DNA from: a virus
Length of the DNA stretch: 64,000 nt
IMG/VR virus record: IMGVR_UViG_3300027733_000030
Span: 96,001-160,000 of that record
Reading direction: 5' to 3' (one strand)
Shown: positions 47,842-59,616 of the stretch, one piece after another
How positions within the stretch are numbered: the first letter of the stretch is position 1
How the letters are laid out: every line of letters starts with the position of its first letter
Translations under genes and position numbers: made by a program
The notes under the pieces: model-generated
What the model was told of the DNA's origin: nothing
What the model saw: the letters and a program-made list of their open reading frames with translations, nothing else
The model's database searches: none

Positions 47842-48330
47842 GATTGTTCCTTTGTGATTGTAAGCATGGGATGCTGTGTGTGAATCATTCCCTATTGGGA
47901 ACGTCTTGAACTATATCTACTACACGGCGTCTCTGTCAACCTATGTTAGAAAATATTTCAAATTTTTTGGGGCGAATCTCTATATGGGAAAAATTATTAG
48001 GGAAAAATTTTTGGACTGAAATGGTTTTCAGGTGTTGCGGGCTTTTCTAATCTCGAGGGTCATTTGTTTCTAATCTCGAGGATATATAAACATATATAAA
48101 CTTATTAAGGTAAAAACTAGGGAAAATTTATGGGGTGGTGATAGTGAGTATATGTGTGTACCTTAATTTTTTAACGTGCCCACCCCCCCATGGGGTCATA
48201 TGCTCTAGTAATAAACGACAATAAGCGGTCGTCCATACCCCTACGTATGGTGCAGGTATCCAGCATAAAAGGACAGCATAGGTGAATACGTTATCGCCGT
48301 CAATGAAACGTAGTATCAAAGGAGAATATA

Positions 48331-48630
48331 ATGATTACATCAATGTTTGATGTTATAGGAAAGTATGCAGTAGATAGTGAGGGGAACATGTTACCCATGC
48401 GTAAGGAGACAGTAGCTATGTACTGCGCACACACGGGTAATGAAATCTGGGTTAAGTCAACCCTACCTGGTGCAGACAGTACAGACGTACAACGGTTCGG
48501 ACATGTGCATACTAACACTGCATGGTTCAACAGCCAGTACAATAACCGCATGGTACTCATAGTTAGTGTCATGAAGTATGACTATAACATGGGTATTTGG
48601 TACTGGTACAACGAGGTACACAGCGCTTAG
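48331..48630 (+). CDS. Hypothetical protein
   Basis: AAAGGAG RBS; 99 aa; followed by the first hairpin repeat. Confidence 0.6.
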   Translation: MITSMFDVIGKYAVDSEGNMLPMRKETVAMYCAHTGNEIWVKSTLPGADSTDVQRFGHVHTNTAWFNSQYNNRMVLIVSVMKYDYNMGIWYWYNEVHSA

Positions 48631-48858
48631 TTATTATACATACCTAGTAGGGTAGGTATGGAGAAGGTGGTTCCTCAGGATCTTATGATTCTGGGGAACT
48701 TCCTTTTTTGAGGATAGGTCATTGTCCTTTAGTAAGGTTCGCCATGGGCCAACGGGTTCACCTCCCGCCAAAAGGTAGACATGGAAGATGGTTTTACCAT
48801 TCGTAATAATCACGTTCAATACGTTAAGTTGAACAAAGGCATGTTTCTAGGAGGAATC

Positions 48859-49128
48859 ATGTTGTCATTCATCAGTAAGAAGGTCACATTCATTGTGGCT
48901 GCAATTGTTGCAGTGTTGTTGGTATTGGAGCCAACAACCGACTTGACAATGGCAGCATTGCGCTTGCCAAGCAAGTTTGTTTGGATGCTCTTGGGCCTCC
49001 TCTTCAGTATCGTTAACTGGGGAATGCTGATCCTTATCGCCATTGGTTTTGGCATTGGATTCATCATTAAGACCCGGACCATTGACTGGTCTGAAGTTAA
49101 GGGTTTCTTCAACAAAGAAGAAGCCTAA
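48859..49128 (+). CDS. Small membrane protein
   Basis: GGAGG RBS before ATG 48859; two to three hydrophobic helices. Confidence 0.65.
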   Translation: MLSFISKKVTFIVAAIVAVLLVLEPTTDLTMAALRLPSKFVWMLLGLLFSIVNWGMLILIAIGFGIGFIIKTRTIDWSEVKGFFNKEEA

Positions 49129-49252
49129 TTAAAAGGGGGTGATGGTCCACCTCTTTAATAAAGAAGAAGGTTGTTTCCCCTGGGGCATTTGCCTTGGGGG
49201 AAACTTCTTTTTTTGAGGATAGATCAATGGGATCAGTCCAAGAAAGGAAACC

Positions 49253-49498
49253 ATGGAAAGAGGTACGTACACGTATCGGACACTCAGGGGTAATGACCTG
49301 GTGTTCCAGGTTGGAGGAAGCATGACGTATTGTCGTGTTTTCAGCCAACAAGGTGAGCTGGTCCACTACTATGGATCAGTTACACCTCCCAAGGTCAGTG
49401 AACAGGATGGTCAAACCATCGTCCTGTTTGAGGACTTTGAGGATGGATCGCGACGCCTTCATGGTGTTGCAATCCGTCCAGTCATTACCTTAGCGTAG
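49253..49498 (+). CDS. Hypothetical protein
   Basis: AAAGGA RBS; between repeat copies 2 and 3. Confidence 0.65.
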   Translation: MERGTYTYRTLRGNDLVFQVGGSMTYCRVFSQQGELVHYYGSVTPPKVSEQDGQTIVLFEDFEDGSRRLHGVAIRPVITLA

Positions 49499-49647
49499 TG
49501 GCTAGACAAAGGGTAGCGTCTTACCTTGCATACTAGCAAAGACGCACCATAGAAGAAGTTGTTCCCGGGGATTTCGGTCCTCGGGAACTTCTTTTTTTGA
49601 GGATAGGGGAAAGGCCCCTAGCTCATTCTCTTGAAAGGGGAATTGTT

Positions 49648-49791
49648 ATGAGTCAAACATACGAATGTGCAGAAGGAATGTGTCAGGATGTAGTGTCCTG
49701 GTCACTATCCGGGGTGCTTGCAGCAGCGGGCATCGTAATCATCACTGTGTTCGTTGTTACGGTGATCATCGGAGAAATCCGACGCAAATAG
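49648..49791 (+). CDS. Single-pass membrane peptide
   Basis: AAAGGGG RBS, MSQTYECAEGMC..., one hydrophobic helix and an RRK tail. Confidence 0.55.
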   Translation: MSQTYECAEGMCQDVVSWSLSGVLAAAGIVIITVFVVTVIIGEIRRK

Positions 49792-49922
49792 GAAAGTAAG
49801 TTAGTAGAAGGTTTGTTCCCGGGGATTTCGGTCCTCGGGAACTTCCTTTTTTTGGCATAGGCGCTAGGCCTCTAGCTACAGTCAACTAACACTGTTGTAA
49901 AAAGTTAGTAAGAAAGGTAATC

Positions 49923-57122: not shown

Positions 57123-58154
57123 ATGAGTATCCTTAGTCAATTCGGACTTAGTTCCGACGATTTCAGCATTGTTGCTGATAGTCCAGAGTTATTTGAGTCC
57201 AACGGCAAAACTACCAAGCTCATTGCGGGCAAAGAAGTTAGCTACAATGTCACTATTGCTGGAAAGAAAATTCCTGCATATGTCACACTTGAAAGCGCAA
57301 AGTTGACTCGTCTCTCGCTCCTTGAGCAACAGACTCGCAACGGTCGTGCCTATTGGCTCGCTACTGGCATGTTCAAGCCTGTCAAACTCAACATCGATCT
57401 TTTGATTGATGGTTCGCGCATGAACATCGTTGATCTTCTTCACACCATTGTGAAAGAAGCATCTGGTAAGCAAGATCATTCTCGTGAGCAGTTTGTTCGT
57501 GACCTTCGTAACATGGGCATGAACTTCGCTGACGGAATGCCTTTGTTCTTCCAACAATTCGGTGCAAGCTTCGAAGCATTTGAATCTGCTGTTACAGCAT
57601 TCAAGCAAGCAGGAGCAACTGATGACCTAGCACGTATGGTCGGCAAGGGTATCAACCCAGGTCGTATTCGTGCTGCTTACGCTCATGAACAAGGTGTTGA
57701 AGTCACCTCGTTCGAACTCGGTACAGTTGATCGTACCAAGTCTGTGCGTAATCAGGGCTTTATCGATCTCGGAGATGCTGTCTTTGAACAGTTCCTTCGC
57801 GTCGTCAAGTTCACCAAAGAAGCAAATGTTCTCAAGAATGAAATCGAAAAGAACATTTCTACTTGGTCACAGGCACAAATCAAGTCTGCTCAAGAGCAAA
57901 TCAAGAAGTTTGAGGATATGGCTAAACAATATACCTCGAACTGGGCAGGTGCGCAACAGCGTATCGTCCAACTGCCTAATGGCAAACTTGAGAACAAAGA
58001 TCAGTTTGATCCAGTAAACGCCCCTTGTGGTCGTTTCACTATGCTCGTCGACAACAATCCTGTTGAAGTCGATCTGTGGACTAACTCAGCTACTGCAAAT
58101 ACATCAACAGTTGGAACTGAAGTTTCAATTCTTGATGGCAAAACTGGGTTCTAA
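57123..58154 (+). CDS. Hypothetical protein (343 aa)
   Basis: Long ORF with strongly biased codons; family not recognised. Confidence 0.8.
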   Translation: MSILSQFGLSSDDFSIVADSPELFESNGKTTKLIAGKEVSYNVTIAGKKIPAYVTLESAKLTRLSLLEQQTRNGRAYWLATGMFKPVKLNIDLLIDGSRMNIVDLLHTIVKEASGKQDHSREQFVRDLRNMGMNFADGMPLFFQQFGASFEAFESAVTAFKQAGATDDLARMVGKGINPGRIRAAYAHEQGVEVTSFELGTVDRTKSVRNQGFIDLGDAVFEQFLRVVKFTKEANVLKNEIEKNISTWSQAQIKSAQEQIKKFEDMAKQYTSNWAGAQQRIVQLPNGKLENKDQFDPVNAPCGRFTMLVDNNPVEVDLWTNSATANTSTVGTEVSILDGKTGF

Positions 58155-58159
58155 TAACT

Positions 58160-58850
58160 TAATGGTTTGTCCGTTCCATTCAAAAACGGACACCCCTAAT
58201 TGTATAACGGATTTGCCCGAACATACAATATGGTTACAGGGATGACTGTAAGCCCTGGTAAAATGAACAGTTGGAGTTTGTCTATACTCTACAAAAAAGT
58301 AGACGTTTACCCTATCTAACTTGGAGAGAAGGTATCCCGAAAGGAGCAAGTTACGATACTCTAGTAAAGTCTGATTGAAAAAGTATCCGAGAAATGCTAG
58401 ATCAGATAGGCTGCGCTTGTCTTTAGTGAAGCGTCAGGATTGGTAGCGACCTGCTTACTATGTCTCGTCTGGTATATGCGAGCCACATGGCTACCAATAT
58501 ACCACCCCCTTGGGGCTAATGGTTACAAGTATCTGGTTTAAAGCATAATGCAATAACCTGTAATCTTTACAGGCTACATTGTATATTATGGACATCTTGT
58601 CTTCGTGCAAAGCCATTTCAGTGAGGTTCGATTCCTCAAAGCTCCACCGAGTACTGCAGGTAACACATAACTAGGGACACTAAAGTGGAACCGTGGATTG
58701 ATGTTACACACTGTCATGTGTAATGTCTACTGTGACAGCAGTAGCCTGCGGGAAAGTCTTGTTTGCGGAAGCTGATCGGCAAATTTGTCAGCTGTATTCA
58801 ACAATTTCGAGTTGAATGCGCATATCCACGTAAGACTCGTGGCGCAAACA
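58160..58850 (+). ncRNA. Candidate large structured non-coding RNA region
   Basis: About 700 nt with no RBS-led ORF and at least 10 predicted helices, some with G-U pairs and one with a GAAA loop. Confidence 0.5.
58512..58648 (+). ncRNA. tRNA-Ala/tmRNA-like domain (acceptor stem plus T-arm)
   Basis: GGGGCT pairs with AGCTCC (G3-U70), discriminator A then CC(G); perfect T-arm TGAGG-TTCGATT-CCTCA; the interior forms long helices instead of D and anticodon arms. Confidence 0.55.
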
Positions 58851-58900
58851 CCTTTCTAATAAAAAAAATTTTAGTACAAACAAAACAGAAAAGGAGCAAT

Positions 58901-59062
58901 ATGTCAGATCAAGAAAGATATCCTTGCAGCCTATGCTGGCAAGAATCAGGTGGCAAACTAATTGTCCCAAACGTTCAAGGTTTTAACCTTGGTAGTGGTG
59001 GACATTGGTATGCCTGCGAAAAACACTTAAACAATCCAATGTTTCAAAAAGAGGAGAAATAA
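58901..59062 (+). CDS. Small Cys-rich protein
   Basis: AAAGGAG RBS before ATG 58901 (MSDQERYPCSLC...ACEKH). Confidence 0.55.
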   Translation: MSDQERYPCSLCWQESGGKLIVPNVQGFNLGSGGHWYACEKHLNNPMFQKEEK

Positions 59063-59064
59063 AC

Positions 59065-59250
59065 ATGTCATTAGAAAATGATCCCGCCAACGGAATCTTC
59101 CGTCACAAATGTGTCGTAGATAGTTGTGACAATCACATCATCTATGACGATGAACCCAGGTGCTACTCATGTAGCCCAGATGAAGGTTCGTCAGTACGTG
59201 GATACTCTGCTTATGCAGAATACTTGGCTTCATCACCATTACATCGCTAA
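59065..59250 (+). CDS. Small zinc-finger protein
   Basis: GAGGAG RBS before MSLENDP; CVVDSC...CYSC. Confidence 0.55.
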   Translation: MSLENDPANGIFRHKCVVDSCDNHIIYDDEPRCYSCSPDEGSSVRGYSAYAEYLASSPLHR

Positions 59251-59616
59251 TAAAGATCGGTAACTCAGTAGGTATGACTCAACTCCATATCTACTGAGTT
59301 ACTTTCTTTTTTTACAAATAGACCTCTATAAGGGGGGGGCCCGCGAAGCGGGGGGGTACCCTACAGGATATTATCAGAACATCATAACGTCAGTTATACT
59401 ATTCTCTATATATAGGGAATAATATAACATAAAAAAAATTTAGTATAGATTTTTAGTCTTGATGTTTCGCCGGCCTGTCCACAGGCCAAATATCCTAGTC
59501 CAACTAGAAACTATTTTCCCCAAAAATATTTCCAAATCCCAGCATAACACAACTGCTTATGCTATAATATACCTACGAAAGTAAGTACCCCTACATAAAC
59601 AAGGAGTATAGACGAG

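What the first reader, a model, noticed from the sequence alone, without database searches (positions are those of the whole stretch)
48100..59360. Possible new system: an RdRP-like polymerase inside an array of structured, individually punctuated RNA cassettes, near a large ncRNA
Seen: seven family-A elements precede the polymerase-like gene and four or five follow it; the gene's own leader carries the element; a hairpin-dense ncRNA candidate lies 5 kb downstream; the block is visibly more GC-rich than the structural region. Inference, speculative: either (a) a self-contained early transcription unit in which the polymerase recognises T-run/ATAG promoters, or (b) an RNA-templated system in which terminator-defined short transcripts are templates for an RdRP-like enzyme, making antisense or dsRNA products.
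Basis: inference. Interest (0 to 1): 0.7.

Follow-up and report, generated by a model that had tools for sequence, protein, structure and literature searches.

The report
Phage early promoter-terminator array with polymerase
This is the early-gene region of an uncultured, roughly 200-kb phage: one-gene cassettes separated by a combined stop-and-start signal lead up to the gene for a phage RNA polymerase, after which a second start signal takes over, which suggests a relay of phage polymerases rather than an RNA-copying system.

Summary
Eleven exact T-run/ATAG elements (0.48 expected) lie on the + strand at 48.7-59.3 kb, seven before and four to six after gene 50789-53188. That gene's product has the predicted fold of a single-chain two-barrel RNA polymerase (QDE-1/RDR2 Z 10-13; Thermus phage P23-45 gp64 Z 9.2), with an invariant DxDD metal loop.

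The elements are most likely terminator-promoter junctions: a GC hairpin, a shared T-run, a conserved core and a short leader hairpin. The cassettes between them are small, fast-evolving genes with ribosome-binding sites, not bare RNA templates.

In three complete relatives this "class I" signal occurs almost only in the 8-11 kb directly upstream of the polymerase gene. A second signal, AAAAGAAGGG ("class II"), starts just downstream of it in nearly all relatives, including a distant group that has no class I array. It ends 28-30 nt before the start of a second polymerase paralogue.

Best reading: a relay in which a time-zero enzyme (virion or host polymerase) reads class I, RNAP-1 reads class II, and class II drives RNAP-2. 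The RNA-templated idea is unsupported.

A ~255-nt conserved structured RNA (58506-58765) is real but unclassified.

This scan found the same kind of array before on other phage DNA.

The parts
48669..48717 (+). Class I junction 1: terminator-like hairpin 48669-48700, then TTCCTTTTTTGAGGATAG
49173..49222 (+). Class I junction 2: hairpin 49173-49204, T-run, GAGGATAG
49561..49606 (+). Class I junction 3: hairpin 49561-49588, T-run, GAGGATAG
49815..49860 (+). Class I junction 4: same hairpin sequence as junction 3, T-run, TGGCATAG
50187..50233 (+). Class I junction 5: hairpin, T-run, GAGGATAG
50486..50530 (+). Class I junction 6: hairpin 50486-50511, T-run, GCCGATAG
50683..50715 (+). Class I copy 7, in the polymerase gene's leader. 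It has no upstream hairpin (dG -5.0). T-run, GACGATAG, then the small leader hairpin GGCCATTGGCC
50789..53188 (+). RNAP-1: 799-aa single-chain two-barrel RNA polymerase. Invariant GGxDxDD (D439, D441, D442). Beta-like barrel at about residues 130-260, beta-prime-like barrel at about 384-480
53381..53431 (+). Class I junction 8: hairpin 53381-53418, T-run, GAGGATAG. It drives the 122-aa and 76-aa genes (53550-54151)
54160..54215 (+). Class I junction 9: hairpin, then TTCTTTCTTTGAGGATAG (one mismatch). It drives the YpsA/SLOG-family gene 54252-55010
55036..55110 (+). Start of the switch region: hairpin 55036-55061 and two tandem AT-rich class I copies (55062-55078, 55095-55110)
55203..55281 (+). 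Three tandem class II motifs AAAAGAAGGG (55203, 55229, 55272) before the 132-aa gene 55327-55725
55852..55972 (+). Hairpin, class I variants (55878-55893 and about 55920-55933), then a class II motif at 55963-55972 before gene 56011-56337
56541..56550 (+). Class II motif before genes 56568-56750 and 56747-56950
57038..57047 (+). Class II motif before the conserved 343-aa gene
57123..58154 (+). Conserved 343-aa protein of unknown fold, present downstream of RNAP-1 in 22 related loci
58506..58765 (+). About 255-nt conserved structured RNA. It has a tRNA-like T-arm (58621-58637) and a possible acceptor pairing with G3-U. No Rfam family matches
59258..59321 (+). Long hairpin, then the class I variant TTTCTTTTTTTACAAATAG
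60059..60068 (+). Class II motif before the 143-aa gene 60215-60646.
48331..50659 (+). Seven small early genes with Shine-Dalgarno sites: 48331-48630, 48781-49128, 49253-49498, 49648-49791, 49923-50126, 50275-50451, 50564-50659

Best explanation
The block is the early transcription region of an uncultured phage of about 200 kb. Each 'family-A' element is a two-in-one junction. A GC-rich hairpin plus T-run ends the upstream transcript. The same T-run runs into a conserved core (T-run, four bases, RTAG; here TTTTTTTGAGGATAG), followed by a short leader hairpin, and this core restarts transcription for the next one-gene cassette. I call this signal class I. The cassettes encode small, rapidly changing early proteins, and related phages have shuffled them at these junctions. 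Gene 50789-53188 encodes RNAP-1, a single-chain two-barrel RNA polymerase of the clade that holds QDE-1, YonO and P23-45 gp64. Its metal loop reads DxDD instead of DxDxD. RNAP-1 belongs to the class I regulon and in most relatives is its last gene. I infer that class I is read by a polymerase already present at infection: the virion-borne paralogue encoded among the late genes, or less likely the host enzyme. I also infer that RNAP-1 is a DNA-dependent enzyme that reads a second signal, AAAAGAAGGG, often with TTCTAAA 20-30 nt upstream (class II). That signal begins downstream of its gene and, in relatives, ends just before a second paralogue, RNAP-2. Shown here: the motifs, their hairpins, their genome-wide placement, the predicted fold, and the mosaic between relatives. 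Inferred: promoter and terminator function, which polymerase reads which motif, and the template type.
For: Fold: the AF2 model has pLDDT 88. Foldseek gives QDE-1 and RDR2 at E 3e-7 and P23-45 gp64 at E 5e-4. VIA-align gives RDR2 Z 13.3 over 566 residues, QDE-1 Z 10.4 over 594, gp64 Z 9.2 over 403, gp96 Z 7.6. GGxDxDD is invariant in the 30-sequence alignment and present in 199 of 201 homologues. Motifs in the window: class I 11 copies against 0.48 expected; class II 7 against 0.19; all on the + strand. Sigma-70-like sites are not enriched (21 against 24.3), while terminator-like sites are (35 against 10.8). Across 12 genomes, 82% of 123 class I sites have an upstream hairpin of -10 kcal/mol or stronger, against 29% of control positions. 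The stems differ in sequence. Some copies keep the T-run and RTAG without a hairpin. In three complete relatives, 28 of 29 TTTATGGRTAG copies lie in the 8-11 kb directly upstream of RNAP-1 on its strand. Class II gives 3 hits in 235 kb upstream against 88 (+ strand) and 0 (- strand) in 74 kb downstream of RNAP-1. In complete relatives class II clusters between RNAP-1 and RNAP-2, and one copy lies 28-30 nt before the RNAP-2 start codon in 3 of 3. The group at 36% identity has RNAP-1, RNAP-2 and class II but no class I array. The cassettes have Shine-Dalgarno sites and protein-level homologues. Against a relative with 94% RNAP-1 identity, the flanks are collinear at 92-93% while the array is mosaic, with about 6 cassettes against 13. 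Precedent: in P23-45 the virion polymerase reads AT-rich promoters in a 9-kb pre-early block that contains the non-virion polymerase gene, and that second polymerase uses a different motif (PMC10770324).
Against: There are no transcript data, so promoter, terminator and start sites rest on sequence alone. The best structural matches are RNA-dependent enzymes (RDR2, QDE-1), not the phage DNA-dependent ones. The DxDD loop is non-canonical and no activity has been shown for it. I checked the virion polymerase only at motif level in one relative: a 1427-aa late-strand protein with GGFDLDD, for which hhalign gave 9% probability. In this window three class I cassettes lie between RNAP-1 and the first class II site, so the boundary is less sharp here than in relatives. 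The 9-mer class II motif has background hits elsewhere in 200-kb genomes. L031 (26% identity) has class I-like elements but no class II motif after the gene.
Confidence: 0.6

Rival explanations
1. One reading: RNAP-1 itself recognises the T-run/ATAG class I promoters, class II belongs to RNAP-2, and each polymerase gene is autoregulated.
For: RNAP-1 sits inside the class I array. Arrays accompany all relatives with 43% identity or more. Class I variants (GAGGATAG, AAYGATAG, ATGGGTAG) differ between polymerase subclades.
Against: Each polymerase gene would need its own product to be expressed, so further unseen promoters would be required. The group at 36% identity keeps RNAP-1 but has no class I array. 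Class II, not class I, is the motif that co-occurs with RNAP-1 almost universally and starts just after its gene, as T7 promoters do after gene 1 (the T7 comparison is from my own knowledge).
Confidence: 0.2
2. Class I elements are terminators followed by RNA-processing or stability sites, not promoters. One long early transcript, started by the host polymerase upstream, is attenuated and cut at each junction.
For: The hairpin plus U-run is terminator-like. A short 5' hairpin after a cleavage site would stabilise the downstream mRNA. No transcription start sites are known.
Against: Motif copies without hairpins persist (50683, 55095, 55878). Tandem copies 32 nt apart (55062, 55095), and the layout of tandem class I then class II copies conserved in L001 and L005, look like stacked promoters. 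Strong terminators at every junction would leave distal genes, including RNAP-1, almost untranscribed.
Confidence: 0.08
3. One reading: RNAP-1 acts as an RNA-dependent polymerase that copies terminator-bounded cassette transcripts into antisense RNA or dsRNA.
For: The top structural neighbours are RDR2 and QDE-1. QDE-1 has both DNA- and RNA-dependent activity (PMC9508822 abstract).
Against: The cassettes are ordinary protein genes with Shine-Dalgarno sites. The class I and class II architecture fits DNA promoters. The characterised phage members of the clade in the papers read here are DNA-dependent (PMC10770324, PMC5467207). Three paralogues arranged in a relay are explained without RNA templating.
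Confidence: 0.03

Closest known systems
Thermus phage P23-45 two-polymerase system (gp96 virion RNAP fused to the tape measure; gp64 non-virion RNAP), PMC10770324
   Same: Single-chain two-barrel polymerases related by fold (gp64 Z 9.2, gp96 Z 7.6). A block of about 9-11 kb holds a strongly conserved T/AT-rich motif and contains the non-virion polymerase gene. A second, different motif marks where that polymerase acts. Paralogous polymerases occur within one phage.
   Different: No sequence similarity is detectable. The metal loop is DxDD, not DFDGD. There are two non-virion paralogues (RNAP-1 and RNAP-2) plus a candidate virion one. Class I overlaps intrinsic-terminator U-tracts. The host is unknown and there are no transcript data.
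PeSL (promoter-early stem-loop) cassettes of T4-type phages, PMC2839356
   Same: Small regulatory units made of a promoter plus a terminator stem-loop flank non-essential early genes in a hyperplastic region. The mosaic between close relatives points to shuffling at the repeats.
   Different: PeSL promoters are sigma-70-like and read by the host polymerase. Here the core does not resemble the sigma-70 consensus and the array ends at a phage polymerase gene.
Neurospora QDE-1 and plant RDR2 (RNA-silencing polymerases)
   Same: These are the best fold matches over about 570-600 residues, covering both barrels.
   Different: Sequence identity is 8-12%. They are eukaryotic RNA-dependent enzymes with a DxDGD loop. 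The genomic context here is a phage promoter relay.
Coliphage N4 three-polymerase programme and its hairpin early promoters (comparison from my own knowledge)
   Same: Polymerases act in sequence, starting with an injected enzyme. Short hairpins with 3-5-nt loops sit at the promoter (a leader hairpin at 67% of class I sites against 37% of controls).
   Different: The N4 enzymes are T7-like and unrelated in fold. N4 late transcription uses the host polymerase. Whether the hairpin here acts in DNA or in RNA was not tested.

Membership tests
Single-chain two-barrel (DPBB) RNA polymerases (QDE-1 / YonO / P23-45 gp64 clade) | Two double-psi beta-barrels in one chain, in the polymerase arrangement | tested here: met
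   Full-length matches to RDR2 (Z 13.3, 566 residues aligned), QDE-1 (Z 10.4, 594) and gp64 (Z 9.2, 403). Isolated DPBB domains match residues 132-250.
Single-chain two-barrel (DPBB) RNA polymerases (QDE-1 / YonO / P23-45 gp64 clade) | Metal-binding loop with three Asp on the beta-prime-like barrel, canonically DxDxD | tested here: inconclusive
   Three invariant Asp (D439, D441, D442) lie in the loop before strand 443-452, but the spacing is DxDD. This holds in 199 of 201 homologues. Whether the loop is catalytically competent cannot be tested here.
Single-chain two-barrel (DPBB) RNA polymerases (QDE-1 / YonO / P23-45 gp64 clade) | Template-dependent RNA synthesis | not testable with these tools
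   This needs purified protein.
P23-45-type relay of virion and non-virion polymerases | The non-virion polymerase gene lies inside the small block that carries the first promoter class | tested here: met
   Class I is confined to 8-11 kb ending at RNAP-1 in three complete relatives. In the window, seven copies precede the gene and one sits in its leader.
P23-45-type relay of virion and non-virion polymerases | A distinct second motif marks the region transcribed by the non-virion polymerase | tested here: met
   Class II AWAGAAGGG gives 3 hits upstream against 88 downstream, strand-specific. This is sequence evidence only.
P23-45-type relay of virion and non-virion polymerases | A polymerase paralogue is packaged in the virion | tested here: inconclusive
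   Relative G002 has a 1427-aa late-strand protein with GGFDLDD followed by an R-x-P loop, but hhalign gives only 9% probability. Earlier scan notes report a tail-module polymerase fold in this same genome. I did not re-test that, and packaging itself cannot be tested here.
PeSL-like mobile regulatory cassettes | Promoter plus stem-loop units flank small genes, with mosaic shuffling between relatives | tested here: met
PeSL-like mobile regulatory cassettes | Sigma-70-type early promoter | tested here: not met
   The class I core has no -35/-10 consensus, and sigma-70-like sites are not enriched (21 against 24.3). The array therefore works like PeSLs but is not a member of that family.
tmRNA / tRNA (for the RNA at 58506-58765) | Detected by ARAGORN or by the Rfam tRNA/tmRNA models | tested here: not met
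   Only a 17-nt T-arm fragment matches beta_tmRNA, at E 1.9.

The most novel reading that the evidence does not exclude
These phages run a relay of three paralogous DxDD two-barrel polymerases that is largely independent of the host enzyme: virion enzyme, then RNAP-1, then RNAP-2. Each polymerase gene sits exactly at the boundary between two promoter classes. The first promoter class is fused to the preceding terminator's U-tract and also serves as the recombination joint for cassette exchange. A more radical reading remains formally open at about 3%: RNAP-1 also copies RNA, as QDE-1 does.
Probability: 0.4. Interest if true: 0.65.

Novelty: new variant of a known kind. Interest (0 to 1): 0.55.

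Why it matters
The polymerase family is abundant in metagenomes: 102 clusters in one search and 132 representatives at 50% identity in the other. It has no Pfam or PHROG model, no source annotation beyond 'hypothetical protein', and no match in 50,697 deposited phage genomes. The two motif classes give testable promoter candidates for enzymes with an atypical DxDD active site. The layout of class I array, RNAP-1, class II block, RNAP-2 is a compact, sequence-readable model of how a large phage can time its genes with its own polymerases. Compact single-chain polymerases with short cognate promoters could also be useful as orthogonal expression tools. The terminator-promoter junctions also explain why this region is hypervariable between close relatives.

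Tried and rejected
- Pfam, PHROGs and PDB sequence searches with RNAP-1 found nothing.
- tblastn and megablast against deposited phage genomes found nothing.
- The giant ORF at window 1-4992(-) is not a paralogue of RNAP-1.
- No whole genome is held for this window, and the ENA/JGI contigs could not be searched by handle. I used IMG/VR relatives instead.
- A k-mer candidate for a late motif, AGAAATAG, turned out to be coding-sequence bias.
- TACTATA is a weak late-promoter lead and is not enriched overall in the window (13 against about 10).
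- The conserved 343-aa protein gave a confident model (pLDDT 81) but no clear structural neighbour: Foldseek best E 0.02, VIA-wide best Z 5.8 on a helical hairpin only. The Pfam Mu Gam hit is below threshold.
- The 132-aa protein after the switch region has only weak Atlas leads to phage single-stranded-DNA-binding families (0.83-0.85).
- For the structured RNA, Rfam at a permissive threshold and ARAGORN at lowered thresholds gave no tmRNA or credible tRNA. An exact-pattern scan found only three further contigs.
- hhalign of the candidate virion paralogue against RNAP-1 was not significant beyond the metal-loop segment.

Full report
WHAT IS THERE

The window is a phage. Long structural genes fill the - strand from 1 to 45257. 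A + strand block starts with a UvsX/RecA-like gene at 45832.

Exact TTTTTTNNNNATAG occurs 11 times against 0.48 expected by shuffling. All copies are on the + strand between 48704 and 59308. Seven lie before the long ORF. Four exact and two near copies lie after it. The copy at 50688 sits in the ORF's leader.

The strongest terminator-like hairpins of the region directly abut these T-runs: 35 sites against 10.8 +/- 3.8 expected. Sigma-70-like sites are not enriched (21 against 24.3). GC is 0.45-0.50 here and lower in the structural region.

THE POLYMERASE

Homologues begin at the ATG at 50789, which has a good Shine-Dalgarno site, giving a 799-aa product.

The protein has no Pfam, PHROG or PDB sequence match, and no tblastn match in 50,697 deposited phage genomes. 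It does have 102 metagenomic homologue clusters, all unannotated or called 'hypothetical protein', some on contigs of up to 207 kb.

An AlphaFold model built on a 30-sequence alignment is confident (pLDDT 88). It matches the following structures:
- QDE-1 and RDR2: Foldseek E 3e-7; VIA Z 10.4-13.3 over about 570-600 residues.
- P23-45 gp64: Z 9.2 over 403 residues.
- P23-45 gp96: Z 7.6.
- phi14:2 gp66: Z 5.2.

It is therefore a single-chain two-barrel RNA polymerase. The 'RdRP-like' label is correct as a description of the fold.

The metal loop is invariant GGxDxDD, that is DxDD rather than DxDxD. This spacing holds in 199 of 201 detectable homologues.

THE ELEMENTS

I collected 123 sites of the generalised core TTTTNNNNRTAG from 12 genomes.
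- 82% have an upstream hairpin of -10 kcal/mol or stronger, against 29% of control positions. The stems differ in sequence. This is what is expected of generic intrinsic terminators.
- Some copies have no hairpin but keep the T-run and RTAG (window 50683, 55095, 55878). The core therefore has its own function.
- A short hairpin that begins at the TAG is moderately enriched (67% against 37%).

The cassettes carry Shine-Dalgarno sites and have protein-level homologues in relatives. They are small genes, not bare RNA templates.

I compared the window with a relative whose polymerase is 94% identical. The flanks are collinear at 92-93%. The array itself is mosaic: about 6 cassettes against 13, some in a different order, with the junction sequences cross-matching. 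This resembles the PeSL-mediated shuffling described in T4-type phages (PMC2839356), except that the promoter part here is not sigma-70-like.

RELATIVES AND THE SECOND MOTIF

IMG/VR gave 28 related loci.

All loci at 43% identity or more that have enough upstream sequence carry strand-specific arrays of the class I core. The central bases vary: GAGGATAG, AAYGATAG or ATGGGTAG.

In three complete relatives of about 200 kb, 28 of 29 copies of TTTATGGRTAG lie in the 8-11 kb directly upstream of the polymerase gene, on its strand.

A second motif, AWAGAAGGG, often has TTCTAAA 20-30 nt upstream.
- It is almost absent upstream of the polymerase gene: 3 hits in 235 kb.
- It is dense downstream: 88 hits on the + strand and none on the - strand in 74 kb.
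- In most relatives it starts 100-250 nt after the polymerase stop codon. This includes the group at 36% identity, which has no class I array.
- In the window, AAAAGAAGGG occurs 7 times against 0.19 expected. All copies are intergenic and on the + strand, at 55203-60068.

The complete relatives encode a second paralogue, RNAP-2, 15-17 kb downstream. Class II sites cluster between the two polymerase genes. One copy lies 28-30 nt before the RNAP-2 start codon in 3 of 3 genomes.

A third GGxDxDD protein of 1427 aa lies among the late-strand genes of relative G002. Its similarity to RNAP-1 is confined to the metal-loop segment. Earlier notes of this scan report a tail-module polymerase fold in this same genome. 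I did not re-test that.

MECHANISM

The layout is: class I array, RNAP-1, class II block, RNAP-2. It parallels P23-45. There the injected gp96 reads AT-rich promoters in a 9-kb pre-early block that contains the gp64 gene, and gp64 uses a different motif (PMC10770324).

The most economical reading is a relay in which each polymerase gene is driven by the previous enzyme's promoter. This avoids the bootstrapping problem that arises if RNAP-1 reads class I. It also explains why RNAP-1 and class II persist together where class I is missing.

Promoter and terminator function, transcription start sites, template type and virion packaging are all inferred.

In this window three class I cassettes (53381-55110) lie between RNAP-1 and the first class II site. 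In some relatives the homologous cassettes lie upstream of the polymerase gene. A 'switch' region with two class I copies followed by three class II copies precedes the 132-aa gene. The same layout appears in L001 and L005.

THE ncRNA

The stretch 58160-58860 is ORF-poor. A core of about 255 nt (58506-58765) is about 90% identical to three other contigs whose flanking proteins are only 34-58% identical. Its T-arm covaries in three versions (TGAGG/CCTCA, AGAGG/CCTCT, GAAGG/CCTTC). Four pairs covary among only three sequences.

No Rfam family, tRNA or tmRNA call fits it. I found no evidence that it works with the polymerase, and it is absent from most relatives.

VERDICT

This is a new variant of the known strategy in which a phage times its genes with its own polymerases.

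The same kind of array ending at a polymerase gene was already reported by this scan on other phage DNA.

Noticed in passing
window 58506-58765: A structured RNA of about 255 nt is conserved at about 90% in L005/L051, L052 and L053, although the neighbouring proteins are far more diverged. It has a canonical T-arm (TGAGG TTCGATT CCTCA). GGGGCTA at 58508 can pair with AAGCTCC at 58639, with G3-U, the alanine identity pair. No known RNA family fits.
   Followed up: partly
window 58231-58320: A 70-nt stretch is conserved at 80-83% in distant relatives (L014, L019, L021, L031), mostly just after the 343-aa gene. It can be read as a 29-codon ORF without an obvious Shine-Dalgarno site.
   Followed up: no
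window 59617-59832: A 71-aa protein is the best-conserved small gene of the region (62-77% identity in 21 loci). It is flanked by direct repeats CTATATAGGGAATAATA at about 59405 and 59822. It has no Pfam hit.
   Followed up: no
window 54252-55010: A YpsA/SLOG-family protein (Pfam E 2e-12) is encoded in a class I cassette. Its homologue lies upstream of the polymerase gene in L011.
   Followed up: partly
window 47857-47939 (- strand): A near-consensus sigma-70-type promoter (TTGACA, 18 nt, TATAGT) faces the small - strand gene 47623-47841. Host-type promoters therefore do exist next to the array.
   Followed up: no
window 45262-45370: The divergent intergenic region between late and early genes has two direct AT-rich repeats (ATATTATTATATRTTAACATATAAG) and the run (GGGGGGAA)x2 followed by GGGGGGG. 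It may be an origin or a promoter hub.
   Followed up: no
related records G005-G009 and proteins P0105-P0120: In the relatives at 26-40% identity, the RNAP-1 domain forms the C-terminal part of much longer proteins or open frames (884-2129 aa). The N-terminal extensions were not examined.
   Followed up: no
window 22166, 10073, 45337 (- strand); G002 5568 and others: TACTATA(T) lies 30-80 nt upstream of several late genes, and the surrounding context is conserved between the window and G002. This is a weak candidate for a late promoter and is not enriched overall.
   Followed up: partly
IMG/VR contigs behind L004, L007, L009, L010, L012, L022, L024: Many related assemblies break within 70-1400 nt after the RNAP-1 gene, which is where the tandem class I and class II repeats begin in longer relatives. 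This may be repeat-induced assembly breakage or a hotspot of microdiversity.
   Followed up: no
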